Shown here one piece after another: positions 5,979 to 60,009 of a stretch of 64,000 bases of DNA (positions within the stretch are counted from its first letter, which is position 1; every line of letters begins with the position of its first letter). Under the pieces are notes generated by a model. The model had not been told where the DNA came from and did not search any database. It worked only from the letters and a program-made list of their open reading frames with translations. Position numbers and translations under genes: made by a program. The DNA is from Escherichia phage SmurfNell, in sequence record OR896824.1, one strand, 5' to 3'.

Positions 5979-8309
5979 ATGAGCCATCGCATAGAAAAAG
6001 TAATTAAACGTGACGGTACTGTAGAAGACTTTGCTCCTGAAAAACTCAATGGTTGGGCAGTGTATGGCTGCAAAACAGTTGATGTAAGCTGGTCATCCAT
6101 CACTATGGCTGCTCAAAAAACTCTACCTAAAGGTGTTGTAGACTCCGACACCCTAATGGATGCGTTAATTAAAGCCGCTGAAGGTCTTATCAAAGATAAC
6201 CCAGCATATGACGTGCCGGCTAAGGAATTACGTCTTGCGCAGATGCGTAAACGTCTATATGATTCCTTCGAGCCTCCTTCTCTGCGTTTCTTCCACGATC
6301 ATATGGTTAGTGTTGGAGCTTGGGAAGACATGAGTGCATGGATTACTGATGAACAATTTGAAGCTCTGAATCAAGTTATCGACCATGATCGTGATCGTTT
6401 ATTCACCAGTGGTGGACTGAAACAGTTCTTCGACAAGTATTCCCGTCGTAATATTGCAACTGGTGAAATTTATGAAACTCCGCAGTTTGCCTACATGGGT
6501 ATGGCAATGGCGATGCTATCTCAACCTAACTGGACAATTCTAGATGCAATCGACCTCTACAATGCAATGTCGCTCCACAAAATCAACGTTCCTACGCCGC
6601 CACTGGTTGGCCTGCGCTCTAGTGACCGTGGATTTGCTAGTTGCTGCCTCGTGGATTCCACTGACACGCTGGATTCAATCGACACAGCCGAGCACATCGT
6701 CTTCAAAATGGTCGCAGCCAGAGCGGGAATCGGGTATCATCTTGAAAGCCGATCAATTGCTGATCCGGTGCGAAATGGGGCATTCCCGCATTCCGGAAAA
6801 CTGCCATATTATAGACACATTGACCGATCAGTAAAAGCTAACACTCAGCAAACCCGTGGTGGTTCTGCTACTGTGTCTTACCCATACTTCGATCCTGAAA
6901 TCATTCAGTTGATGCAGGTTAAACAGCAACGTGCTACAGACGAGAATAAAATCGATAAGATGGATTACTCTCTGAGCTTTAACAACCTTCTGTTAAAACG
7001 TTACCTGAAAAACGAAGATATTACGCTAATGTCCTACTTCTACGCACCAGAAGTTCATAAAGCGTTTTATGGTGAAGATGAGGCTAAGTTTGAAGAAATC
7101 TACGTGGCAGCGGAGAAACGTGTGGCATCTCTTACAAAGATCGACCACGAAGGAAAAACAATTCCAGCAGCTCCTAGAATCTCTGCAAAAGAAATCCTAG
7201 ATACTTGGTTACGTATCCGTATGGAAACAGGGCGTATGTATGCTCATCACATTGGTGAATCTAACCGTCATGGTAACTTCCTTGACCCGATTCGTATGAC
7301 CAACCTTTGTGTTGAAATTACTCAGCCAACCCGTCCATTCCATCACATTACGGAACTGTATAAGACCCAAGATCAGTTAGACGATATGCGTCCAGAAGAT
7401 ATTGGTGAAGTATCTTTGTGTAACTTAGGTGGTGTTGTACTAGGTCGCATGGAATCTCTAGCTGAATGGGAGAAAACTTGCTACATCCTTCTGAAATTCG
7501 TTGATACAATCATCGAGATTCAGGACTACCCATTCCCAACCATGGAATACACGGCTAAGAAACGTCGTAACGTTGGTATTGGTCTGATGAACGCGGCAGG
7601 TGCAATGGCAGCAGAAGGTTTGGCTTACGAAGGTGTTGAAGCCCGTAACTGGATTCACCGTGAAGCTGAAAAGCTGTCCTACTTCCTGCACAAAGCCTCT
7701 GTACGTCTGGCTAAAGAACAAGGTGCATGTGACTGGTTTAATCGTACTAAACCATCCAAAGGAACTCTGGTAATCGACACGTACAAGAAAACTGTTGATG
7801 AACTGGTAACTGTAGGTCTAGAAATGGATTGGGAATCTCTGCGTGCAGATATTCTGAAATATGGTATGCGCAACTCTGTTCTGACTGCTCAGATGCCGGG
7901 AGAAAGTTCCTCTGTACTGCTAGGTGTTACTAACTCTATCGAGCCGCCTCGTAAGATTGTATCTATCAAGGGTAGTGCAGTGAATAAAGTAATTGCAATT
8001 GCTCCAGGTGCAACCGATTGGGATACATTAATGAGTTATAAACTGGCTTATGATGTAGATCGTATCGAGTGGATCAAATGGGTAGCAACCATGCAGAAAT
8101 TCTTCAGTCAGTCTATCAGTACGAATATGTACTATGACTACACCAAGTTTGAGAATGAAATCATTCCTGGTCCAGTAGTAGTTCGTGATTTCATGACTGC
8201 TGTTAAGTACGGCTGGAAAACTTGGTACTACGCTAACTTCAACACTGAAAATGGTGGTGGAGCTGGTGAAGAAGCAGCAGGTTGTGCATCAGGTGGTTGT
8301 ACTATTTAA
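5979..8309 (+). CDS. nrdA: ribonucleoside-diphosphate reductase alpha subunit (class Ia)
   Basis: ATP-cone-like N-terminus VIKRDGTVEDF; active-site NLCVEI motif; start set at second ATG with AAAGGA RBS (track ORF begins 5919). Confidence 0.85.
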   Translation: MSHRIEKVIKRDGTVEDFAPEKLNGWAVYGCKTVDVSWSSITMAAQKTLPKGVVDSDTLMDALIKAAEGLIKDNPAYDVPAKELRLAQMRKRLYDSFEPPSLRFFHDHMVSVGAWEDMSAWITDEQFEALNQVIDHDRDRLFTSGGLKQFFDKYSRRNIATGEIYETPQFAYMGMAMAMLSQPNWTILDAIDLYNAMSLHKINVPTPPLVGLRSSDRGFASCCLVDSTDTLDSIDTAEHIVFKMVAARAGIGYHLESRSIADPVRNGAFPHSGKLPYYRHIDRSVKANTQQTRGGSATVSYPYFDPEIIQLMQVKQQRATDENKIDKMDYSLSFNNLLLKRYLKNEDITLMSYFYAPEVHKAFYGEDEAKFEEIYVAAEKRVASLTKIDHEGKTIPAAPRISAKEILDTWLRIRMETGRMYAHHIGESNRHGNFLDPIRMTNLCVEITQPTRPFHHITELYKTQDQLDDMRPEDIGEVSLCNLGGVVLGRMESLAEWEKTCYILLKFVDTIIEIQDYPFPTMEYTAKKRRNVGIGLMNAAGAMAAEGLAYEGVEARNWIHREAEKLSYFLHKASVRLAKEQGACDWFNRTKPSKGTLVIDTYKKTVDELVTVGLEMDWESLRADILKYGMRNSVLTAQMPGESSSVLLGVTNSIEPPRKIVSIKGSAVNKVIAIAPGATDWDTLMSYKLAYDVDRIEWIKWVATMQKFFSQSISTNMYYDYTKFENEIIPGPVVVRDFMTAVKYGWKTWYYANFNTENGGGAGEEAAGCASGGCTI

Positions 8310-32995: not shown

Positions 32996-33268
32996 ATGAA
33001 AGAAGCAGAAATTAATGAAATGGCTAGAATATTCATCGTTTCCTATATGCAAGGCAGTTGCAATAGTTTATTCGAGTCTGCTATAGTATTTCAGGAAATG
33101 TTAGCCGAGAAAGGCGTACATATGGAAGATACTGAAATTGAAGATCTTCTAATGGAAACTTGTAGTAGTGCTGAAGTCTTCCAGTGTGGTAACTGTAATT
33201 GGTGGTGTCCAGAGCATGATCGTTCTGAAGAAGGTTCCTACTGTTCCGATTGTGAAGGAGAAGAATAA
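32996..33268 (+). CDS. acidic Cys-rich protein
   Basis: CGNCNWWC...CSDC motifs. Confidence 0.45.
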   Translation: MKEAEINEMARIFIVSYMQGSCNSLFESAIVFQEMLAEKGVHMEDTEIEDLLMETCSSAEVFQCGNCNWWCPEHDRSEEGSYCSDCEGEE

Positions 33269-40459: not shown

Positions 40460-40840
40460 TTGAATTACGCATATCTTATAATACATAACAACGTGGTCTG
40501 TGGTACTCGTGCTGTAGAGATGGGAATCACAGAAGAAAAGTATAACTCTTTGTCTAAATCGGAGCAAGAATACTATGTTGAACAGGCTGCTTGGGAATAT
40601 GCTGAGGCTTATCCCGAAGAACGTGAAGGCCGTGTTACTATTGTTGTTACTTTGGGGCTGGTGGGCTGTGATACCGAAGTTGATACAGATCTAGAAACAC
40701 TTGAAGAATGGGAAGAATTGGATATTGCAGAACAAAATGCTATCATCCGTCAATCTTTCTGGGAAGCAGTAGACTGTCACGTTGTCTTTGAGCCAAATGA
40801 TACAGAAGCTGAAAAACACACTAATTGGATGACTCGATAA
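40460..40840 (+). CDS. acidic hypothetical protein
   Basis: 126 aa ORF with probable TTG start. Confidence 0.4.
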   Translation: MNYAYLIIHNNVVCGTRAVEMGITEEKYNSLSKSEQEYYVEQAAWEYAEAYPEEREGRVTIVVTLGLVGCDTEVDTDLETLEEWEELDIAEQNAIIRQSFWEAVDCHVVFEPNDTEAEKHTNWMTR

Positions 40841-43022: not shown

Positions 43023-43454
43023 ATGCAAAAGATTGATAAAGCACTTTTAATCGCAACAGCAGATAAGTTTGAGCAAGTTAAAGCTACTTTTAAGGCAGTC
43101 TTTCAGTCCTATGTTCAAGACAAATCTAACCCTATTTCTGAGCGTTTGATGATGTGGGAATGTTTTGCTTGCAATGCTCTGCTAATTTCCGATTATAATG
43201 GAGAAGTATCTGAGGAATTGCATGAGATCTTTATTAATGAGGATACTCCACGCTATCAGTTAGTGAACTTCCAAGATCTAGCTGAGCAAGTTATTCCTGA
43301 TGATCTTTGGGACAAGTATTACGGTGATCCTGAAGAAGATGGTATGGAACCTGAGAAGTGCATCGAACTGATCTGTAAGGATCACATTGAAATTGCTGAG
43401 AAATTTGAGCTAGTATTTGCTTCTGAGTTCTCAGGTTTCGTTAACGATTGGTAA
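43023..43454 (+). CDS. hypothetical protein
   Basis: 143 aa ORF. Confidence 0.5.
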   Translation: MQKIDKALLIATADKFEQVKATFKAVFQSYVQDKSNPISERLMMWECFACNALLISDYNGEVSEELHEIFINEDTPRYQLVNFQDLAEQVIPDDLWDKYYGDPEEDGMEPEKCIELICKDHIEIAEKFELVFASEFSGFVNDW

Positions 43455-49420: not shown

Positions 49421-49456
49421 GAGACATTTTTTGAAAACACATTTCTGGAAATTACT

Positions 49457-50059
49457 GTCGGATTTGCACACTGTGTTTCTAGAAATTTATGGTCGGATTT
49501 GCACATTGATAGGAGTCTCCAAAGTTTTTAGGAACACTGAAAATAGCAGCATTATTTCGGGCCGAAGGCCCATGTTTGCCTGAGTTTTTTAGAGTCCCAG
49601 GAATTTTCACTTGTCAAGCTATTTTGCCCCATTTTGCTAATAAAATTTCGCAGAATCTCCACTTATCTCAATTCTATCCAAAACATCCCACATTATCCCC
49701 AAAAACGCAGCAAACCGGTGCTGAAGCACCACTACAGCTGCACCCTCCATAGTTCCTCCCAAAAACCTCGTCGGATTCGCACTTCTCCCCAAACCCACAC
49801 AATCACACACCCTCTCATCGAAGTCACAAAAATATTCCTGAAACCATAAATCTGTCTCCTAGCAAACTCATGTCGTATTTGCACATATACGGCTGGATTT
49901 GTGCGCAGCACGAGTCTGCCCGAGTTTTTAGGAAAATTCATTGTCGGATTCGCACACTATAAAAATATTTGCCATCGGATTTGCACACTACCAAAAATTG
50001 TCGGATTCGCACATACACGCTGGCACGTAATCCGTGGGGGCAAATGTCGGATTTGCACA
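49457..50059 (+). repeat. iteron-like array: nine direct copies of 14 bp motif GTCGGATT(T/C)GCACA
   Basis: Copies near 49457, 49492, 49770, 49872, 49893 (degenerate), 49943, 49974, 50000 and 50046, all in the same orientation. Confidence 0.7.
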
Positions 50060-50095
50060 AAAGCGCAGGGCAAATAGAAAATGCCCTGCCTGCCG

Positions 50096-50258
50096 AAATG
50101 CAAATGATAATGAGATTGATTCGCATTTGAGAAGTTGAATGCGAATGCGAATGAGAATAGTTATCATTTGACTACCGGAATACGAATGAGAATGATTCGC
50201 ATTTAGGAAGGGAAACGCGAATGATAATGAGAATGATTCGCATTTAGGAAGCGAAGTG
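50096..50258 (+). repeat. three direct repeats of about 27 bp, GA(A/T)TGAGAATGATTCGCATTTAGGAAG-like
   Basis: Copies near 50108, 50184 and 50228; each contains inverted GCGAAT/ATTCGC arms. Confidence 0.6.
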
Positions 50259-50277
50259 AGAAACACTGTTATTTAAG

Positions 50278-50286
50278 TTATCCACA
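50278..50286 (+). promoter_or_regulatory. DnaA box (TTATCCACA)
   Basis: Exact match to the consensus DnaA box. Confidence 0.5.
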
Positions 50287-50368
50287 GGTTTATTAACAGC
50301 ACGATTTGACTTGACAAAATCCTAGCGATTTTGAGGCGTTTTCAACAGACTTATCAACAGGTTATTCT

Positions 50369-50533: not shown

Positions 50534-50728
50534 TTAGTCTGGTAGTCGATGTGTGATCTTTTCGCTTTCGCCGTAGGAGTCTACCAAATGTTGATAGTAA
50601 CCATCGTTATCATAAATCACTTTATCATAATCGCCACGCTCCACCACTTGCCGATTTTCCCGCGTATCAGGCACAAAGAAAGTATCAACGGTAACAGTAG
50701 TTTTAGTTACAACAATTTTATCACTCAT
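50534..50728 (-). CDS. hypothetical protein
   Basis: 64 aa ORF, first gene of the minus-strand cassette. Confidence 0.4.
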   Translation of the reverse strand: MSDKIVVTKTTVTVDTFFVPDTRENRQVVERGDYDKVIYDNDGYYQHLVDSYGESEKITHRLPD

Positions 50729-50858
50729 AACGCCATCGCTCCTAGAATGAGAATGATTATCAATATCATTGTAAAGCCATTACCAAATCGTAAACGCTGG
50801 GAATGTTTCCCAGCGGTATTATTAGATTTATGGCTTTGTGTTTTTCGCCACCAGCTAT

Positions 50859-51071
50859 TCACGGTTTTAAATTCTCTATAGTTAATTTTGCGCGGATAGT
50901 AATTCCGTATAATTCGCCTCCCTTGTTTCTTACATCAGGTAGCCAGTCCCACAATTCAGGGTATCCGCTTAAAATTCCTAGCGATGCAAGATTAGCAATA
51001 AAACCGGCTATAGTAACCGCTTCCAGTGAAATAGTTACACGATTATTAATAACTAAAGTAAACTTTTTCAT
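50859..51071 (-). CDS. hypothetical protein
   Basis: 70 aa ORF. Confidence 0.4.
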   Translation of the reverse strand: MKKFTLVINNRVTISLEAVTIAGFIANLASLGILSGYPELWDWLPDVRNKGGELYGITIRAKLTIENLKP

Positions 51072-51412
51072 TGCGCCACCTTTCGAAACGCTGTTTCGAT
51101 ACTTTCAGCGGTTGATTGAATATACGCGCCTTTCATAATCAGGCGCTCCGTACATACTTTGCGGAAAATGTCAATAAATTCATTTTCATTTTCCGCTATT
51201 AACGCTTCCCCCATAACCTGAATATCGCATGAGTTAAAAGTAAGAAACTGAAAGGCAAGCTCGCGAGCGACAACGGCAGAAACTTTATAATGTGCTTTGC
51301 CTTCATAGATATTAACCACGCCTTTATAAACTGGTGAAAGCTGATTTAAATAGTTTGCTAACAATGCCGGACGGCAATTAGCAACAAAACGATTGCCCTC
51401 ATAAATAACCAT
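51068..51412 (-). CDS. hypothetical protein
   Basis: 114 aa ORF, translationally coupled to the downstream gene. Confidence 0.5.
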   Translation of the reverse strand: MVIYEGNRFVANCRPALLANYLNQLSPVYKGVVNIYEGKAHYKVSAVVARELAFQFLTFNSCDIQVMGEALIAENENEFIDIFRKVCTERLIMKGAYIQSTAESIETAFRKVAQ

Positions 51413-51521
51413 TTGTCAACCTCCTAAAGCTGGGAAAATATCATGTACATTTTTAAAACAAATGCGGCGACGGAACATACAACGCCAACGGTAGCAAACG
51501 CTAGAGCAATATATAAGGATC

Positions 51522-51734
51522 TCATAATACCCCACGAAACGCAGCGTAAAAAGTAGCAAAGTGTTTAACCGTTTCGGCTATCAAATTGCCACGCTTGTCA
51601 AATTTCTTTTCTGTAACACGGAAAGCGTTTTTGTTGCGTGCTACATATTCGATTTTACAATCTGGACGCTCGAACGTGTTAACATCCACCAGCTTAAAAC
51701 CTTTGTAACGGGCAAGGGAAACATTCTTTAACAT
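51522..51734 (-). CDS. hypothetical protein
   Basis: 70 aa basic ORF. Confidence 0.45.
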   Translation of the reverse strand: MLKNVSLARYKGFKLVDVNTFERPDCKIEYVARNKNAFRVTEKKFDKRGNLIAETVKHFATFYAAFRGVL

Positions 51735-51736
51735 TT

Positions 51737-51886
51737 TTATTCCCCTTTACCAGTCATACAGCCTAACAAGTAAGAAAACCCCGCGATACCTGCTCCAATA
51801 ATAACCACGTTAACGCCGAAAGCTATTACAAACAGTGATAAAATAGCGCCCAAGATACTAGCTAGAATAGATCGAAAAATAACCAT
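51737..51886 (-). CDS. small membrane peptide
   Basis: Hydrophobic ORF below the track cutoff, read from the minus strand. Confidence 0.3.
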   Translation of the reverse strand: MVIFRSILASILGAILSLFVIAFGVNVVIIGAGIAGFSYLLGCMTGKGE

Positions 51887-51932
51887 TTTATTAGCTCCTA
51901 GAAATTAGGGGATAATATACCCCCTTTATTAA

Positions 51933-52160
51933 TTACATTAAAACAATTTTTGCCGCTTGCTTTTTAGTGCAATGGTTAGCTTTCAATTCATCCAGCAAAA
52001 ATCCGGCGGTTTGCTGGTCAATCTTGTCATTGTCGTAAAGCCCCTGAATGGTAACATAAGTTTTACCTATGCCGAACTCAGAAACCATAACGCTGACAAT
52101 AGCGGGAACGGATACCCATTCCATACCGTTAAAAATTGCAGAAGATGATGAATGTACCAT
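51933..52160 (-). CDS. hypothetical protein
   Basis: 75 aa ORF. Confidence 0.4.
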   Translation of the reverse strand: MVHSSSSAIFNGMEWVSVPAIVSVMVSEFGIGKTYVTIQGLYDNDKIDQQTAGFLLDELKANHCTKKQAAKIVLM

Positions 52161-52209
52161 TTTAACGCCTCCTAGAAATCAGGGAAAATTTTCAACCCAC
52201 CGTTTCGGT

Positions 52210-52245
52210 GTAAAGGCATTATAACAAAAAAGGTCGCCATAATAG
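52210..52245 (-). terminator. rho-independent terminator (minus strand)
   Basis: AGGTCGCC...GGCGACCT hairpin with a T-run on the minus strand. Confidence 0.5.
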
Positions 52246-52267
52246 GCGACCTTTACAAAACTTTACA

Positions 52268-52762
52268 TTAGACTATTTCTAATGCTTCAACATTAAAACA
52301 GCGTTTTAGTTCTTTCTGTAAAACGGCATATTCATCCCAACGGGAATTATCAGGAATATAAACAAGCTGTTTTAATCGGTTTGCGTATAATAACGCCTTG
52401 TTACCAATTATTTCCGCGCCACCGTGTTTAATAATTAGTTTCATAACGGTATTAATAGGATCGCCACCATTTACATAAGTACCGGACTTACTCAATTGAT
52501 AATGATAAAGACTCGCATATACATTATCATTTTCAATCCATTCCCCTGTTTCTTCATCTTCTTCCCCATCGCTACCGAAACGAGAAGCATTATCATATGC
52601 GTGTTCGTTCGCGAAAGCGTCCAGATCACAGCCAGTGGGAACAAAATGTTCCTCCGTCCAGCCTTCCCCACAATAGCCAGTGTGACAATCAACTAAAACG
52701 ATCATATCGTGTTTAGCTTCACTCACACTTTCTAGCGAAAAGCCATATTTTTCTTCTGACAT
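52268..52762 (-). CDS. acidic hypothetical protein
   Basis: 164 aa, Asp/Glu-rich. Confidence 0.5.
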   Translation of the reverse strand: MSEEKYGFSLESVSEAKHDMIVLVDCHTGYCGEGWTEEHFVPTGCDLDAFANEHAYDNASRFGSDGEEDEETGEWIENDNVYASLYHYQLSKSGTYVNGGDPINTVMKLIIKHGGAEIIGNKALLYANRLKQLVYIPDNSRWDEYAVLQKELKRCFNVEALEIV

Positions 52763-52775
52763 AATTAGTCTCCTA

Positions 52776-53084
52776 TTAATTAGCAGGGAAATAAAGAGAA
52801 TTTGCTACACCGTAAAACCCTTTATTCAAGAAAATTACGTCATCACGGACTATTTCATCCACTCCATAATCCAGCAAAGTTTCACCTGCAAAAATACATA
52901 GCCAGCCATAACCACGATCAAAGAAAGCATGATAATTATTAGCGCTTTCTACATGTTCCCATAAAAAGGGACGCCCTTGCTTTTCCCATACAGGAATATT
53001 GATTTTATCATCTGAATAATTAACGTGGGGGCTATTCGGCATTTTTTCGGCTAATTGCGTCAACATGATTTGATTCAGTTGCAT
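52776..53084 (-). CDS. hypothetical protein
   Basis: 102 aa ORF. Confidence 0.5.
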   Translation of the reverse strand: MQLNQIMLTQLAEKMPNSPHVNYSDDKINIPVWEKQGRPFLWEHVESANNYHAFFDRGYGWLCIFAGETLLDYGVDEIVRDDVIFLNKGFYGVANSLYFPAN

Positions 53085-53135
53085 AATAAGTAGTCTCCTA
53101 ACAATTAACAGGGAAATAATCCCCGCTAGTAATTA

Positions 53136-54137
53136 TTATTCTGTTTCGGTGTTAGTGGTAAAGGTAGAAATATCGATACCTTTTACCATTTCGTCGATCA
53201 TTTCCGCAATATTGAAACTCTGTACCATTTCCAACATTGCCGCTTCCATTGCCGCGCCTGCTACCGCTTTCGCTTTCTGATTAGTCGGGGCGTACTGGTC
53301 AACCGCTACGCTTAACAGGTTAGTGATCACTACGCGACCAATCGGAGTATCAATATAACCTTTAATCATAAACGGCGCTTTTTTAGCCGCTACTTTTGTG
53401 ATTTGAGTCAATGCAATTTTACCCGCTTCCAGTTTAGCAGCGTTTACAACGGCAGATTTGTTAGCAGCAACGATAGAAGATACTTTAGACATAATATTTC
53501 CTTTATTTTCAGTAGTTTGCGCATTTGCGCTTGAAGTTTGAGAGTTTACAGCCTGTTTTGCTACGTTGTCAAGCGGTAAAAGTGTAAATCCAGCATTTGC
53601 AACGTTTGATTCATTCCCATACTCTAAATAATCGTTAGGGATCAACATGTTACCGCTAGCGCGTTCAAAGCACAATACGCCAGTTGTTTCGATTGCGTCA
53701 CTATCAGCACCTTTATAACTGGATGATAATTCACGCCAGATACTATTTAATAACGATCCGACACTATCCAATCTGATATTATTTATTTTTGTTGCTGTTA
53801 CCTGCTCCTTTTCTTGCACGTTATATAATCGCGCAATGTAACCACTATGAGACTCACTATAACCAACAATGATAAAATCAATATCAGTTCCCCGACTATT
53901 ACGGAAAATGTGATAATCACGGTTGAAAATTACTAGCGCCCTTGTCTGGTCTAGTAATAGCGTGAAATCATCGACTGAATAATGAGTATCATTATTATCT
54001 AAAATATCCTCGTGAATTTTTTCAACCATTGCGGCGGTGTGCTGAATACTTGCCGCACTACTACCATCTAGCAGGTTGCGCAAACTACCTTTAACAATAG
54101 TTGCGTTTGCTGGTACTGCAATTCTTACAGTAGACAT
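53136..54137 (-). CDS. hypothetical protein
   Basis: 333 aa ORF, first gene of the leftward unit. Confidence 0.55.
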   Translation of the reverse strand: MSTVRIAVPANATIVKGSLRNLLDGSSAASIQHTAAMVEKIHEDILDNNDTHYSVDDFTLLLDQTRALVIFNRDYHIFRNSRGTDIDFIIVGYSESHSGYIARLYNVQEKEQVTATKINNIRLDSVGSLLNSIWRELSSSYKGADSDAIETTGVLCFERASGNMLIPNDYLEYGNESNVANAGFTLLPLDNVAKQAVNSQTSSANAQTTENKGNIMSKVSSIVAANKSAVVNAAKLEAGKIALTQITKVAAKKAPFMIKGYIDTPIGRVVITNLLSVAVDQYAPTNQKAKAVAGAAMEAAMLEMVQSFNIAEMIDEMVKGIDISTFTTNTETE

Positions 54138-54386
54138 TTCTTTGTCTCCATCATTAATCGGTGAGTGAATGATATAGATAATTGTTCGCTAGGGGCAAGA
54201 AAAAAGAAAAGGTTTTTTATTCCTTGCCTAACGCTTGTTTTTATGCTAATCGCGCGTTTTCTATTTCTAGCTATCTGTAAGCGTACACAAGGCTTTATTA
54301 TAATAAGGGTAGCAGTGAGAAAACGCCGTGTAGCGTGTTCTAGGCCGCTTAAATTTGATTGCGGTTGTTACTGCTACCATTCTACC

Positions 54387-54402
54387 CTGTATATTTATAC
54401 AG
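54387..54402. repeat. palindrome CTGTATATTTATACAG (copy 2)
   Basis: Same dyad core as 50369-50386. Confidence 0.6.
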
Positions 54403-54424
54403 TAGGATAACCTGTATATAAGTC

Positions 54425-54433
54425 TGTGGATAA
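54425..54433 (-). promoter_or_regulatory. DnaA box (TGTGGATAA)
   Basis: Exact reverse complement of TTATCCACA. Confidence 0.5.
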
Positions 54434-54473
54434 GTCGCCAAATCGTCGCCTATTGCGTCAAGTTATTTTGTGC

Positions 54474-54482
54474 TGTGGATAA
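54474..54482 (-). promoter_or_regulatory. DnaA box (TGTGGATAA)
   Basis: Second exact copy 49 bp from the first; one-mismatch copy AGTGGATAA near 54758. Confidence 0.5.
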
Positions 54483-54810
54483 CTTTGTGAATAACCTAAA
54501 TGATAGTGGTTCTCACTTAGCCGATAGTTTCTTATAGTTATTATTTCTCTTTAATTTATATGTATATTATATAATATAAAATAGTTAGTTGGCTAATAGG
54601 TTTTTAGAGTATTAATAGTCTGCTAACTGTTTCGGCTGTTACAATCCACCAGCGTGATCATCATCCTAGCGATTATTAGTCTGCTAATGATCTGATACAC
54701 GTCCAGACTTATTTGTCAATGCAAAATAATAGCAGAAAATACTTTTTTGAAAAATCAAGTGGATAACTCATTAAATTTCATTTTTGCTTTTTGTATAAGT
54801 TATTAACAGC

Positions 54811-54842: not shown

Positions 54843-55244
54843 CTCAAAGGAAAAGATAAGCAATCATAAGGGGTACACCGAGAAAACCTCACCACGAGGA
54901 TTTTAGATTTTGTCAAGTAGGCAAGAGCAGATATAAATGAAAAAATTACTTGCTAAAATGGTTGTTTTAGTGTTATTCGCGCGCTCGTTTCATTAAATTT
55001 AGTGCGCCGCTGGATGTTTGCGGAGACTGGTTTTCTTTACGTTTCTTTACAAAAATAAGGTTGCGCCCTTCTCGGTATTCTCCTATTATTTATCACGTAG
55101 GGCGGCAATGACGAACTACACGGCGGGGATAACAGCGATTGACAGTCTGTTTGACCTTTCAAAACCCTGCCATGCTCTTTAAAAATTAGGGAACATCTTA
55201 AAGCCTATCGGCGGTAAACTTAGATATTATAAGGAATCGACGAT

Positions 55245-55454
55245 ATGAAACAAACGCTTTTGATCACTGGCAAGCCTATCAAGTCACTTGATAGCAGAAC
55301 AAAAAATTTGTTGACAGTAGCGCAAAGATCGGTAAAATACCGATTCAAGCAATACAAGAAAGGTAAGCAGCAAGGTCTGGAAATGGTGTGGCGTAATATA
55401 ATGATTGATTTATATAACTCACATCAAATCGAAAAAAGTTTAAAAAACGCTTGA
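55245..55454 (+). CDS. hypothetical protein
   Basis: 69 aa basic ORF with AAGGAA RBS. Confidence 0.4.
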   Translation: MKQTLLITGKPIKSLDSRTKNLLTVAQRSVKYRFKQYKKGKQQGLEMVWRNIMIDLYNSHQIEKSLKNA

Positions 55455-55620
55455 CACGCTAGCCGATAGGTTTTAAGATGTTCCCCGTAGTAACTGCTCT
55501 TTAACAATTTGGAAAAACGGTAATGTTTAGGCTAACTCCTAGCGGATTATAATCTAATAGCGTTTCAAAGTATCGAGGCGCTATTGTGGAATAATCCCCC
55601 AATAAACCGGAGTATTAAAA

Positions 55621-55872
55621 ATGCAAAACGTTATTACCGCGCCGAAAGTAGGTCAATCTGTATTCATTCCTTTTGTTACTAAAACGGATGAATTAACCGG
55701 AAAAGTCGAACGTATTAAAGGTGCGGCGCTTGATCCTTTCGATAAAATCGAAGCGGTCTACGCGGAAACGGAACGTAGCAACAACGGCAAGCCTATTTAT
55801 AATGTTCGCGTTAAATCTGGCGACGTTGTAAAGATCATTCAGAAGGATGATAAATGGCAAGCCATAGCATAA
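55621..55872 (+). CDS. hypothetical protein
   Basis: 83 aa ORF. Confidence 0.45.
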   Translation: MQNVITAPKVGQSVFIPFVTKTDELTGKVERIKGAALDPFDKIEAVYAETERSNNGKPIYNVRVKSGDVVKIIQKDDKWQAIA

Positions 55873-55972
55873 ATTAGTGTTACTTTTATATTCCCCTGAA
55901 ATATGGGGAATATATGGATTAACATTAGTTAATCATAATCCCTTAATTAATAATTGAATGGAGTATTAAATT

Positions 55973-56389
55973 ATGTCTAACGTTAAAACCGAAAAAACCG
56001 CAAAATTCTCTTGGAGCGAAGAAAACACCGAAAAAGCTGTTTCTATGTATTCTGAAATGGTTGCTAAAAGCGGCATTGAATTTGCTAACAGTGACGGCCT
56101 AAAAGAAATTGCCGCCGCCGTTGGCGCTGCTAGTCCGGTGTCTGTACGTTCTAAACTGACAAGCGCAAAAGCGTACCAGAAAAGTGATAAACCGCGTAAA
56201 GTTGGCGGCGGGTCTAGTGTCCGTAAAGCTCACTATGTGCGCGTCATTGCTAAACATGCCATTGATAGCGGCATTGTAAAAGACGCTGACGATCTGGCAA
56301 GTCTTGAAAGTGCAAAACTGGAAACGCTGGACGCCGTAGCGCAATTGTTAGGCGTAGCGGAGGAAGTAAAACAGGCCGCAGGTGAATAA
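55973..56389 (+). CDS. hypothetical protein
   Basis: 138 aa ORF. Confidence 0.5.
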   Translation: MSNVKTEKTAKFSWSEENTEKAVSMYSEMVAKSGIEFANSDGLKEIAAAVGAASPVSVRSKLTSAKAYQKSDKPRKVGGGSSVRKAHYVRVIAKHAIDSGIVKDADDLASLESAKLETLDAVAQLLGVAEEVKQAAGE

Positions 56390-56429
56390 ATTTTAATTAG
56401 CGGGGAATATTCCCCGCTATAATTTCCCT

Positions 56430-56675
56430 TTGACCGGAGTTATTAAAATGATTTTCTTTCCTAGTGAAGCGTTTATTTTAGGTTTATTTATAGTTGCCGC
56501 TATATTTATATTTAATTACGGCAAATATATAATCTCTATTATCGGCATTAATTCAGCTTATGCCGCTGATATGTTTAAACGTCAAGCTAATAAACAAAAA
56601 TATCTGGCGATTATATTTTTAACGCTGGCTATTAGTTGCGGGTTTAGTTCTAGTCTTATGCCAATTCTAGAATAA
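56430..56675 (+). CDS. small membrane protein
   Basis: Two TM helices. Confidence 0.45.
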   Translation: MTGVIKMIFFPSEAFILGLFIVAAIFIFNYGKYIISIIGINSAYAADMFKRQANKQKYLAIIFLTLAISCGFSSSLMPILE

Positions 56676-56783
56676 TATTGCAAATTATAACGCCTTTTAA
56701 ATTGTCCTCACTTCAGGCAAGGCGTTATATTTGGCAATATTGCCAGTATTAATATTTATCCCTTTATAGGAGTTGATTTAGTT

Positions 56784-58448
56784 ATGAATATTTCCGCAGA
56801 AAAACAAGCTCAAATTCTGAAAATGGCCGCAGATTTTAACTTCTACGGTAAGCGTTTACGCGCTACTAAATTGGAAGTTTGCGACGATATTTCAAAAGCT
56901 GTTTATGATACGCCGAAACATTCGACCGCAATTTGTGACTGGCTGGAAGCAAATAAGCCAGCGAAACCTAAAGCGGCAAAAGCTGAAAAGGCGATTAAAA
57001 ATGATGATCGCCCCGAAGCGGCGGGAATTGTTTCTAGTACCGTTGAACAATGGGAAGTTAAATCCGGTCGCCGTTTTATTCTAACGTCGATTCAAAATAA
57101 TACTTTCCCGCATAAAAACTTTTTAGCAAGTCTGGAAAAATTCGCTGAATATTGCGGCGCTGAATTGCTGATTAGTAAATTCATTTATAATAAAAATGGA
57201 TTCCAGAACGGGGAAGGGGCAAACGGTATTAAATACGATCCCGCATTTGATAAATATGTTTGTGATAAAAACGTATTTTTAAATAACCGCCGCTTTGCTT
57301 TCATGGCTGAAATTAACGTTTTACCAACGGCAGATTATCCGCTTTCAGGATTCGCAGAAACCGCCACGGCTTTAAATATCGAAGGTCTGGCAATTGGTCA
57401 CGCAAAAATTACCGCTGAAAGTGTTCCCGCGCTTAAAGGTGAAGTAGTGCGCCGTATGTATTCAACCGGAACGGCTACGCTTAAAAACTACATTCAGCAG
57501 AAAGCAGGTCAAAAAGCTGAGGCTTTACATAATTACGGCGCTTTGCTGGTGGAGTTCGACGACGACGGAGAATTTTATTGCCGCCAGCTTGAAACAATGG
57601 ATGAAAGCGGAATGTTCTATGATTTGAATGTTTGCGCTATGCCTACCGGATGTTTTGAAACGTCCGATCATGTTCTAGGCTTGCAATATGGCGATATTCA
57701 CGCCGAAAAACTAGATGATGATTGCGCCGTCGCTTCATGGGCTAGTGAAAACAGCTTGCTTGATATTCTTAAACCGAAATATCAATTTATTCATGATGTG
57801 CATGATTTTACATCGCGTAACCATCACAACCGCGCTAGTGGTGTATTCCTTGCGAAACAATACGCCGCCGGACGTGATAAAGTTATTGATGATCTTATTG
57901 ATACGGGTCGCGTATTAGAGTCTATGGAGCGTGATTTCTCTCAAACAATCATTGTGGAATCTAACCATGATTTAGCTCTTTCACGCTGGCTTGATGATCG
58001 TAACGCTAACATTAAAGATGATCCCGCAAACGCGGAATTGTATCACCGTCTAAACGCTGCGATTTACGCCGCTATTGCTGAAAAAGATGATACCTTTAAC
58101 GTGCTAGATTACGCCTTGCGTAGTGTCGCAGGTTGCGAATTTAACGCTATTTTCCTGACTACTGACCAGTCATTTAAAATCGCTGGCATTGAATGCGGCG
58201 TACACGGTCACAATGGCATTAACGGCAGTCGGGGCAATCCTAAGCAGTTTAAAAAGTTGGGACGCCTTAACACTGGTCACACTCACACGGCTAGCATTTA
58301 CGGCGGCGTTTATACCGCTGGCGTGGCGGGGTCGCTTGATATGGGCTACAACGTGGGCGCGTCAAGCTGGACGCAAACGCATTTAATTACCTATGCAAAC
58401 GGGCAACGTACTTTGATTGATTTCAAAAACGGTAAATTCTTTGCATAA
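56784..58448 (+). CDS. A1-like pre-early protein with metallophosphoesterase motifs
   Basis: 554 aa; GDIH, SNHD and GHTH motifs; size and context resemble T5 A1 (recalled as about 556 aa). Confidence 0.5.
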   Translation: MNISAEKQAQILKMAADFNFYGKRLRATKLEVCDDISKAVYDTPKHSTAICDWLEANKPAKPKAAKAEKAIKNDDRPEAAGIVSSTVEQWEVKSGRRFILTSIQNNTFPHKNFLASLEKFAEYCGAELLISKFIYNKNGFQNGEGANGIKYDPAFDKYVCDKNVFLNNRRFAFMAEINVLPTADYPLSGFAETATALNIEGLAIGHAKITAESVPALKGEVVRRMYSTGTATLKNYIQQKAGQKAEALHNYGALLVEFDDDGEFYCRQLETMDESGMFYDLNVCAMPTGCFETSDHVLGLQYGDIHAEKLDDDCAVASWASENSLLDILKPKYQFIHDVHDFTSRNHHNRASGVFLAKQYAAGRDKVIDDLIDTGRVLESMERDFSQTIIVESNHDLALSRWLDDRNANIKDDPANAELYHRLNAAIYAAIAEKDDTFNVLDYALRSVAGCEFNAIFLTTDQSFKIAGIECGVHGHNGINGSRGNPKQFKKLGRLNTGHTHTASIYGGVYTAGVAGSLDMGYNVGASSWTQTHLITYANGQRTLIDFKNGKFFA

Positions 58449-58500
58449 TTAAATTTAATCGGCGGTTGAAATATACCGCCATTAATAAAAGGTTTATTAA

Positions 58501-58758
58501 ATGAATATTGTATTACCTAAAACACTGGATAAAAAGCAGTATATAACGCCGGATGATATGGAATGCGGCAAGGTATACCAATTCGATTATATGTTGGCTA
58601 GTCCGACGAATACAGGTTGTATTATTGCAGTTGATACCCGTGATAATGACGTATTAACGTTTAATGATTATTCTGACTTTATGGAATGGTTAGATGATCA
58701 AAGTATTACTAATAACGGCGAATTAACGCCGTATCAATTAACAATTGCAATTAAATAA
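58501..58758 (+). CDS. hypothetical protein
   Basis: 85 aa ORF. Confidence 0.45.
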   Translation: MNIVLPKTLDKKQYITPDDMECGKVYQFDYMLASPTNTGCIIAVDTRDNDVLTFNDYSDFMEWLDDQSITNNGELTPYQLTIAIK

Positions 58759-58794
58759 GTTAATCCCGTAATTAAATAATCTGGAGTCATAAAC

Positions 58795-59187
58795 ATGAAA
58801 AACCAAAACATTCCTTTTGATCGTGCTACTTCTTCCATCGTTCTAGTTTATTCTAATGGCGAACGTTATCACGTCGAGGCGGGGCAAGTTAATTTCGATT
58901 TGCTGAATTATAACGACGCTTTGCAGGTTACTACCTTTGCTTATGATACCGGCAAAGTGGCAAGCCATACAAAAGCAAAAGGCGTTTACGCTGATACTTT
59001 GACAGTGCAAACAATTATTATTGATGCGCTTAAATCCGGTCTAGCGTTTGCAGTTGTTAAGCCGTGTCCGGTCTGCAATCCCGAAGCTAGCGCGATGGTT
59101 TACACTTGCGCGGGGATTCGCTCTAGCGTACATGGTGAAGATCTTAGCTTTATCGCCGATGCTCTCGCTTTTGGTCTGGCGTTCTAA
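58795..59187 (+). CDS. hypothetical pre-early protein
   Basis: 130 aa ORF between the A1-like and HAD phosphatase genes. Confidence 0.45.
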   Translation: MKNQNIPFDRATSSIVLVYSNGERYHVEAGQVNFDLLNYNDALQVTTFAYDTGKVASHTKAKGVYADTLTVQTIIIDALKSGLAFAVVKPCPVCNPEASAMVYTCAGIRSSVHGEDLSFIADALAFGLAF

Positions 59188-59274
59188 TAGTTAATTGAAC
59201 ATTGCCAGCTAATCTAATATAATTAGCTGGCAAGATTGAATTAACCTAAATCCCTTAAATGGAGAATGTAACAA

Positions 59275-60009
59275 ATGAATCAAGTCAATATGAATATTAC
59301 CCGCACTTTCCCGCATATTTCCCGCGTTATGATTTGGGATTTAGACGGTACAATCATTAACTCAATGCACCGTGTCGGGCCTTGTTTTGATGATAATGGG
59401 AATTTAGATTTAAATAAATATTCCCGCGAAGCCTGCAAGCATGATTTAATTATGCAGGATTCTTTATTGCCATTGGTTGAATATATGCGCCAATGTATGA
59501 ATGATCCCAATACCTTAAACCTTATTTGTACCGCTCGCTTAATGGGTAAATCTGATTATTATTTCTTGCGTAAACAAAGTCTAAGAGGGCGCGGAAATAG
59601 TAATATTCGCGTATTTTCCCGCGATACATTACATAAATACTTTGAAGCTGGTAAGGTTAGCGAAATATATCACAGCAAAGACGCTGTATATAAGTCTTAT
59701 TACTTTGAACTGTTTAAACAGCTATATCCTAACGCTGATTTTACGATGATTGATGATCATAAAGGTGTATTATCAGCGGCGGCAAGTGCTGGATTTAAAA
59801 CGCTGGACGCTCAAGCCGTTAACGATATCCTATCAATCGGCGTAACATTGATCGGTGAAACCTTTATTGATGAATCGCTTGATGATGATAACGATTATCA
59901 ATTCCTAGCCGAACGTTTAAAAATGTGTTGGGAAGGTATGACCGAGGAAGAACGCGAGGAATATAGTACCACACCTCAACAATTCATTGATAAATTAAAA
60001 GTTGCCTAA
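59275..60009 (+). CDS. HAD-superfamily 5'-deoxynucleotidase-like (Dmp-like)
   Basis: HAD motif I IWDLDGTII near the N-terminus; 244 aa. Confidence 0.5.
   Translation: MNQVNMNITRTFPHISRVMIWDLDGTIINSMHRVGPCFDDNGNLDLNKYSREACKHDLIMQDSLLPLVEYMRQCMNDPNTLNLICTARLMGKSDYYFLRKQSLRGRGNSNIRVFSRDTLHKYFEAGKVSEIYHSKDAVYKSYYFELFKQLYPNADFTMIDDHKGVLSAAASAGFKTLDAQAVNDILSIGVTLIGETFIDESLDDDNDYQFLAERLKMCWEGMTEEEREEYSTTPQQFIDKLKVA

What the first reader, a model, noticed from the sequence alone, without database searches (positions are those of the whole stretch)
52268..52762. Strongly acidic 164 aa protein in the pre-early-like block: candidate DNA-mimic or anti-restriction factor
The protein is Asp/Glu-rich and sits in the block that, in T5-type phages, is delivered first and is credited with protecting the genome from host nucleases. 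I recall the responsible gene(s) being incompletely defined. Acidic small proteins in first-injected DNA are classic DNA mimics (Ocr and ArdA types).
Basis: inference. Interest (0 to 1): 0.5.

Follow-up and report, generated by a model that had tools for sequence, protein, structure and literature searches.

The report
Acidic pre-early accessory protein, function unknown
This is a real, conserved gene for a small acidic protein carried on the first-injected DNA of many T5-like phages, but it resembles no known DNA mimic, and phage T5 itself, the model for restriction resistance, lacks it.

Summary
The ORF is real: 52762→52268 on the minus strand, 164 aa, pI 4.55, net charge −17. It has a strong ribosome-binding site, and a strong terminator lies 13 nt past the stop. 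It is under purifying selection (pN/pS 0.07–0.15). It lies in the T5-type pre-early block, in the operon of the T5.011/DUF7566 homolog.

Acidity is confined to the N-terminal 100 residues (net −18). That property is conserved across the family (pI 4.05–4.8 in all 76 members), and no position is conserved as basic.

T5 has no homolog. In T5 the T5.011 stop codon joins directly to the terminator that follows this gene in the window, so the gene is a presence/absence cassette. Published data show the Epseptimavirus carriers are more R-M-sensitive than T5.

It is most likely a non-enzymatic acidic binder or decoy for a host or defence protein. An anti-restriction role remains possible, but nothing found here supports it.

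The parts
52268..52762 (-). Target CDS. 164 aa, with an acidic N-domain (about residues 7-100) and a neutral C-domain (about residues 102-163). Member of phrog_6741.
   Evidence: ORF call. phrog_6741 match, E 2.5e-88. AF2 model pLDDT 89.5, pTM 0.83. pN/pS 0.07-0.15 against SB13 and EPS7 orthologs.
52769..52774 (-). Shine-Dalgarno sequence AGGAGA, 6 nt upstream of the ATG. It lies 1 nt after the TAA stop of the upstream 102-aa ORF.
   Evidence: Read directly from the sequence.
52229..52254 (-). Intrinsic terminator (AAAGGTCGCC-TATTAT-GGCGACCTTT followed by a T-run), 13 nt after the target stop codon. It is homologous to the terminator T5 carries directly after T5.011.
   Evidence: Terminator scan. 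RNA fold -17.8 kcal/mol, z -4.4. Alignment to T5 7490-7640.
52776..53084 (-). Upstream 102-aa ORF, the second gene of the indel relative to T5. It is sporadic (84 phage records) and belongs to phrog_16959, function unknown.
53136..54137 (-). First gene of the operon: 333-aa DUF7566 protein, ortholog of T5.011 (57% identity).
   Evidence: Pfam PF24450, E 5e-140. tblastn against T5.
54169..54198 (-). Sigma-70-like promoter candidate (TTGCCC-18-TATCAT) about 30 nt upstream of the 333-aa gene. T5 has an annotated promoter at the equivalent position.
   Evidence: Consensus scan only. T5 annotation. Weak evidence.

Best explanation
The gene encodes a non-enzymatic, two-domain accessory protein that is made from the first-injected (pre-early) DNA as the last gene of the T5.011/DUF7566 operon. 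The functional module is the N-terminal acidic domain of about 90 aa. It is a small beta-beta-alpha-beta unit with an exposed acidic helix face followed by an acidic loop, and it also exists as a standalone protein in other large lytic phages. It most likely acts stoichiometrically, by binding a positively charged surface of a host or defence protein, probably a nucleic-acid-binding one, and blocking or diverting it early in infection. The C-terminal domain is found fused to the N-domain only in T5-like phages and would provide targeting or oligomerisation. The gene is dispensable and lineage-variable. It is not the factor behind T5's restriction insensitivity. Shown here: the gene is real, it sits in the pre-early block, it is a cassette, its acidity is conserved, and it has no detectable relationship to known mimics or enzymes. 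Inferred: the binder/decoy mechanism and the nature of the target.
For: Real gene under purifying selection, with RBS and terminator. Pre-early position by synteny with T5. Location inside annotated terminal repeats of relatives. In five divergent lineages the homolog sits 1-2 genes downstream of DUF7566, within the dmp/A1/A2 block. Confident compact alpha/beta model. No enzyme-family or Pfam hit. No significant structural neighbour. Only uncharacterised proteins of T5-like phages in BFVD. N-domain net charge is conserved at -10 to -20 with no conserved basic position, and the conserved acidic positions are E37, D48, E53, D57, D65, D69-71 and D79. About 26 standalone ~90-aa homologs match only the N-domain, with 18-33% D+E (most 24-33%). 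They lie in arrays of small early-type genes. The near-invariant Cys31 of close homologs is replaced by V, P, I or Y in distant full-length members, which argues against catalysis. There is presence/absence polymorphism at a precise site among close T5 relatives, which is typical of accessory host-interaction genes. Other highly acidic T5 proteins of unknown function (Ptr1, Ptr2) interact with host immunity (PMC11464382).
Against: There is no direct functional evidence of any kind, and no paper mentions the family. The exposure of E53 and D57 is inferred from helix geometry only. Small acidic ORFs are common in this genome, so acidity alone discriminates poorly. The conserved motifs (TGxCG, YQLSxSG, NGGDP, RLKQLVYIP) could equally mark a ligand or active site in an unrecognised fold.
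Confidence: 0.5

Rival explanations
1. One reading: a DNA-mimic anti-restriction protein that works like Ocr or ArdA. It would be expressed from FST DNA and would protect the later-injected genome from type I (or other) R-M systems.
For: Pre-early expression context. Conserved negative charge with no conserved basic position. N-domain charge density of -0.18 per residue approaches that of Ocr at -0.24. DNA mimics are structurally diverse, so a new fold does not exclude the class. PMC10644984 infers that Epseptimaviruses have some unidentified anti-restriction activity against Eco29kI and Esp1396I.
Against: No Pfam, PADLOC, PDB-sequence, HH or fold similarity to Ocr, ArdA or Ugi. The whole protein is only -0.10 per residue, and half of it is neutral. 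The most acidic segment is a variable loop that is replaced by a zinc-ribbon-like insert in 18 of 76 members. T5 lacks the gene yet is broadly R-M-resistant. Carriers Bas26-29 are the more R-M-sensitive genus. Bas29 (99.4% identical copy) is sensitive to EcoRV and intermediately sensitive to EcoRI and EcoP1 (PMC13250531, PMC8594841). Bas27, which carries a 62%-identical homolog, is restricted by type I EcoR124I when sites lie in the FST (PMC10644984). This phenotype evidence is correlative, and it does not exclude a narrow specificity.
Confidence: 0.15
2. A functional partner, modulator or antidote of the co-transcribed DUF7566 (T5.011) protein. T5.011 is toxic and disorganises the nucleoid when expressed alone.
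For: In all five lineages examined, the full-length homolog lies 1-2 genes downstream of DUF7566 on the same strand, while the gene between them varies. T5.011 toxicity and its nucleoid phenotype are reported in bioRxiv 10.64898/2026.04.02.716235.
Against: DUF7566 occurs in 506 phage records against 338 for the target. T5 runs T5.011 without the target. Conserved order may only reflect vertical inheritance of the operon. Standalone N-domain homologs occur in phages with no DUF7566 nearby.
Confidence: 0.15
3. An enzyme or small-molecule-binding protein of unrecognised fold that uses the conserved TGxCG cysteine and the NGGDP motif.
For: T28, G29, C31, G32, G99 and G100 are invariant among the 25 closer homologs. 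Cys is at least 90% conserved in the short forms.
Against: Cys31 falls below 80% in the non-redundant full-length set and is replaced by V, P, I or Y. The remaining invariant residues are mostly Gly and Ala, which is typical of turns and packing. No enzyme family or fold match was found.
Confidence: 0.07

Closest known systems
T7 Ocr (gp0.3), DNA-mimic inhibitor of type I R-M and BREX
   Same: Small, negatively charged, and encoded on the first DNA to enter the cell. No conserved basic residues.
ArdA and Ugi-type acidic mimics
   Same: Acidic proteins that work by binding rather than by catalysis. This similarity is a hypothesis for the target, not a finding.
T5 Ptr1 and Ptr2, highly acidic early proteins of unknown function that trigger PARIS (PMC11464382)
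   Same: Same phage group. Small, highly acidic, unknown function, no resemblance to Ocr.
   Different: Not homologous, because T5 contains no detectable relative of the target. Ptr1 and Ptr2 are not pre-early genes. PARIS triggering by the target is untested.
T5 pre-early (FST) gene set: dmp, A1, A2, hdi, T5.011-T5.017
   Same: Same block, same operon as T5.011, and inside the terminal repeat in relatives.
   Different: It is not one of T5's 17 pre-early genes. It occupies an indel between the T5.011 stop and its terminator.
phrog_6741 and phrog_1997 (PHROGs, unknown function)
   Same: Full-length match to phrog_6741 (E 2.5e-88). Standalone N-domain relatives hit phrog_1997 and phrog_6741.
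   Different: These families carry no functional annotation, so membership explains nothing about mechanism.

Membership tests
Ocr (Pfam PF08684) | Sequence or profile similarity to T7 gp0.3 | tested here: not met
   No Pfam hit at E<=1. hhalign of the family profile against T7 Ocr gives probability 0.2%.
Ocr (Pfam PF08684) | The Ocr fold as solved in the PDB (elongated helical dimer; that description is from my own knowledge) | tested here: not met
Ocr (Pfam PF08684) | Inhibits type I R-M in vivo | not testable with these tools
   Only indirect evidence is available: carrier phages Bas26-29 are R-M-sensitive (PMC10644984, PMC8594841).
ArdA (Pfam PF07275) | Sequence or profile similarity, or the ArdA fold | tested here: not met
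Ugi / p56-type uracil-DNA-glycosylase inhibitors | Fold similarity to solved inhibitor structures | tested here: not met
DNA-mimic proteins (functional class) | Surface carboxylates arranged like a DNA phosphate backbone | not testable with these tools
   Model coordinates were not retrievable. The only available facts are conserved net charge and conserved acidic positions on one helix plus the following loop.
DNA-mimic proteins (functional class) | High overall negative charge density | tested here: inconclusive
   Whole protein -0.10 per residue, N-domain -0.18, Ocr -0.24. Standalone N-domain relatives have 18-33% D+E, most of them 24-33%.
T5-type pre-early (FST) genes | Located between the genome end (dmp) and the injection-stop region, inside the terminal repeat | tested here: met
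   Synteny map. Terminal-repeat annotation and two copies per record in EscoHU1, pork27, Elw and Kenya-K16. Repeat-rich iss-like region at 49.4-50.3 kb.
T5-type pre-early (FST) genes | Ortholog present in T5 | tested here: not met
   tblastn and family HMM against T5 1-111,000 give a best score of 8.5 bits, against 287 bits for the control. The empty-site alignment agrees.
T5-type pre-early (FST) genes | Transcribed before second-step transfer | not testable with these tools
   Inferred from operon position only.
phrog_6741 | Full-length HMM match | tested here: met
   E 2.5e-88, residues 1-164 of 164.

The most novel reading that the evidence does not exclude
The ~90-aa acidic N-domain (TGxCG ... 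NA-x-x-YG ... acidic loop ... GG motif) defines an undescribed family of phage early proteins with a fold that has no solved relative. It is standalone in diverse large lytic phages and fused to a C-terminal domain in the pre-early operon of T5-like phages. On this reading it is a new structural class of nucleic-acid mimic or decoy that neutralises a host DNA-binding defence or is sensed by it, for example as a PARIS-type trigger. Its presence/absence would then explain part of the differences in defence sensitivity among T5-like phages.
Probability: 0.2. Interest if true: 0.65.

Novelty: new member of a known kind. Interest (0 to 1): 0.35.

Why it matters
T5-like phages are the classic case of two-step DNA injection, and most of their pre-early genes still have no known function. 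This analysis removes one candidate from the long-standing question of how T5 resists restriction, because T5 lacks the gene. It also defines a conserved acidic protein family with an unrecognised fold. The family occurs as a clean cassette that is present or absent among near-identical phages. Empty-site phages include T5, NR01 and Spc35. Phages such as chee24, EC100 and Lindwurm carry only the 164-aa gene, and Epseptimaviruses carry the two-gene version. That natural polymorphism makes the function directly testable, by knock-in or knock-out and plating on defence panels.

Tried and rejected
1. A weak single-sequence PDB hit to phiKZ174 (9xph_G, E 0.11) is treated as chance. It was not recovered with the family profile or by Foldseek-PDB.

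3. A weak DUF7167 hit for one short homolog (E 0.0034, below the Pfam cut-off) was not pursued, since the family is a DUF anyway.

4. A possible paralog in the window, the very acidic 106-aa ORF at about 40520 with a 'VGCDTE...AEQNA' stretch, was rejected: hhalign probability 0.6%.

5. A core metal site formed by C26, H27, C31, H39 and C45 was rejected, because all of these except C31 vary even among close homologs.

6. Catalytic Cys31 was rejected, because it is replaced in distant members.

7. The afdb50 fold library was unavailable.

8. A literature search for family identifiers returned nothing.

9. A PADLOC scan returned nothing.

10. The neighbourhoods of the standalone short homologs showed no recognisable anti-defence genes.

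Full report
**Observation.**

The window carries an ATG-initiated ORF on the minus strand from 52762 to 52268, encoding 164 aa. An AGGAGA Shine-Dalgarno sequence lies 6 nt upstream of the ATG, and 1 nt after the stop codon of the preceding 102-aa ORF. A strong intrinsic terminator lies at 52254→52229, 13 nt past the stop: a 10-bp GC-rich stem followed by a T-run. It folds at -17.8 kcal/mol with z = -4.4. Against the SB13 and EPS7 orthologs, pN/pS is 0.07 and 0.15. The gene is therefore real and under constraint.

The protein has 30 D+E against 13 K+R, giving net charge -17 and pI 4.55. Two qualifications apply.
- Ten of the 102 ORFs of at least 80 aa in the window have a lower pI, so it is not an outlier in this genome.
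- The charge is entirely in residues 1-100 (net -18). Residues 101-164 are neutral (net +1).

**Genomic context.**

The window is an Epseptimavirus-type T5-like phage, 96.9% identical to Salmonella phage SB13 over 51000-54500. tblastn with T5 first-step-transfer proteins gives this map:
- Minus strand, 50537-54128: T5.017, T5.015, the Ung-dependent nickase, T5.013, T5.012 and T5.011.
- Plus strand, 55108-60006: T5.009, 008, 007, A2, 005, A1, 002 and dmp.

The target is the last gene of the unit 333 aa (T5.011/DUF7566) → 102 aa → 164 aa → terminator. In relatives with annotated ends, the gene lies inside the terminal repeat and occurs twice per record. All annotated orthologs are 'hypothetical protein'.

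**Absence from T5.**

T5's FST region has orthologs of every neighbour, but none of the 164-aa or 102-aa ORFs. A family HMM and tblastn over T5 positions 1-111,000 give at best 8.5 bits, against 287 bits for the window control.

Alignment of the intergenic DNA shows that T5 joins the T5.011 stop (…TAATAATTA) directly to CTAATGTAAAGTTTTGTAAAGGTCGCC…. That is the very terminator that follows the target in the window. The two genes are therefore a clean indel of about 0.86 kb.

A search with T5's junction shows three states among close relatives:
- Empty site: T5, NR01, Spc35, AKFV33.
- An insert of about 549 bp holding only the 164-aa gene: chee24, EC100, Lindwurm, BUCT632, HASG4.
- The two-gene version, in Epseptimaviruses.

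Across the phage collection, DUF7566 is found in 506 records, the target family in 338, and the 102-aa ORF in 84.

In four further divergent lineages the homolog again lies 1-2 genes downstream of DUF7566, inside a dmp/A1/A2 block, with a variable gene in between. These are Klebsiella Sugarlandvirus JIPh_Kp127 and three metagenomic T5-like contigs. The simplest reading is an ancestral, frequently lost accessory gene of the pre-early operon.

**The protein.**

No Pfam, PADLOC or PDB sequence match was found. The only family hit is phrog_6741, of unknown function.

An AlphaFold2 model built from 25 homologs is confident, with pLDDT 89.5 and pTM 0.83. It has two lobes:
- An N-lobe: β-β-α, then a loop with a small hairpin, then β.
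- A C-lobe: α-ββ-α-α-β.

The fold searches gave the following results:
- Foldseek against the PDB gives no hit at E≤0.001.
- BFVD returns only uncharacterised proteins of T5-like phages: Shivani, JIPh_Kp127, My1, AAS21 and Vibrio phages.
- Ocr, ArdA and Ugi do not appear in any of these results.
- hhalign of the family profile against T7 Ocr gives a probability of 0.2%.

An exhaustive HMM search of 1.84 billion representatives finds only 57. About 26 of them are standalone ~90-aa proteins that match only the N-domain (query positions 23-103). They lie in arrays of small early-type genes in other large lytic phages.

**Is the acidity meaningful?**

Yes. All 76 family members have pI 4.05-4.8. 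In 35 non-redundant full-length members, the N-domain net charge is -10 to -20 (median -16). No position anywhere is conserved as basic. Conserved acidic positions are E37, D48, E53, D57, D65, D69-71, D79 and E144.

By helix geometry, E53 and D57 face away from the invariant packing residues A55 and A59, so they should be exposed. This point is an inference.

However, the most acidic stretch (GEEDEETGE) is a variable loop. In 18 of 76 members it is expanded by a CxxC…CxxC zinc-ribbon-like insert.

The strictly conserved residues are mostly Gly, Ala and Thr. Cys31 is replaced by V, P, I or Y in distant members. That argues against an active-site role.

**Published phenotypes.**

Three papers bear on the anti-restriction idea.
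- Restriction resistance is a property of Tequintavirus. The sister genus Epseptimavirus, whose BASEL members Bas26-29 all carry a homolog, is more sensitive, irrespective of sites in the FST (PMC10644984; PMC8594841).
- Bas29/SuperGirl, whose copy is 99.4% identical, is sensitive to EcoRV and intermediately sensitive to EcoRI and EcoP1 (PMC13250531).
- Bas27, which carries a 62%-identical homolog, is restricted by type I EcoR124I when sites lie in the FST.

This evidence is correlative and does not exclude a narrow specificity. Together with the gene's absence from T5, it removes the gene as an explanation for T5-type protection.

Two further papers give context.
- Thirteen of T5's 17 pre-early genes are dispensable, and T5.011 is toxic and disorganises the nucleoid (bioRxiv 10.64898/2026.04.02.716235).
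- T5 also encodes unrelated, highly acidic proteins (Ptr1, Ptr2) that trigger PARIS (PMC11464382). So acidic early proteins recur in this group, and they are not all DNA mimics in the Ocr sense.

**Interpretation.**

The best-supported reading (confidence about 0.5) is a non-enzymatic acidic binder or decoy. It would be made from first-injected DNA, and its N-domain would engage a basic surface of a host or defence protein. The C-domain would be a lineage-specific addition.

Three rivals remain:
- A genuine DNA-mimic anti-restriction protein (about 0.15).
- A partner or modulator of the co-transcribed DUF7566 protein (about 0.15).
- An unrecognised enzyme (about 0.07).

**Known families and novelty.**

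It is not a member of the Ocr, ArdA or Ugi families, because their defining sequence and fold features were tested and not met. Whether it works like them is open.

I classify it as a new member of a known kind, namely the small acidic early accessory proteins of lytic phages. It has an unrecognised fold, and its natural presence/absence polymorphism is convenient for experiments.

**Verdict.**

Interest is moderate to low (0.35). The family is uncharacterised and testable. There is no positive functional evidence, and the link to the T5 restriction puzzle is contradicted.

Noticed in passing
window 49440-50290: A non-coding stretch just beyond the T5.017 homolog is packed with at least 7 copies of a GTCGGATT(T/C)GCAC-containing repeat. 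It also has AATGAGAATGATTCGCATT direct and inverted repeats. T5 carries its injection-stop signal (iss) at the equivalent position.
   Followed up: partly
window 52776-53084 (-): The 102-aa ORF upstream of the target is also absent from T5. It is far more sporadic, with 84 phage records, and has distant hits in Vibrio and Pectobacterium phages and in a 366-kb Erwinia phage. It matches only the first half of phrog_16959, positions 1-101 of 196.
   Followed up: partly
window 58501-58758 (+): An 85-aa ORF between the A1 and T5.002 homologs is even more acidic than the target (pI 4.05). It sits in the slot of T5.003 but gives no tblastn match to it. It is a second acidic pre-early ORF that the finding did not mention.
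   Followed up: no
window 51522-51734 (-): This 70-aa ORF is 93% identical to the T5 Ung-dependent nickase, called T5.015 in the literature and T5.014 in NC_005859. It is a known toxic pre-early gene, three genes downstream of the target.
   Followed up: yes
window 50859-51071 (-): This 70-aa hydrophobic ORF has no counterpart in the T5 FST region, and T5.016, T5.003 and hegG have no homolog in the window's pre-early block. The pre-early block therefore differs from T5 at several cassette-like positions.
   Followed up: no
window 32996-33268, 40520-40840, 43023-43454 (+): Three further very acidic ORFs lie in the early region (pI 4.05-4.2), all in PHROGs of unknown function. The 143-aa ORF is 75% identical to T5.033. 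The 90-aa ORF ends in a CxxC…CxxC motif. Whether any corresponds to the PARIS triggers Ptr1 or Ptr2 was not checked.
   Followed up: partly
L004 (Klebsiella phage JIPh_Kp127) 5376-13906: In this Sugarlandvirus, the T5.011-like operon containing the homolog is on the same strand as A2, A1 and dmp. In T5 and in the window the two operons are divergent. This implies an inversion of one pre-early operon between genera.
   Followed up: no
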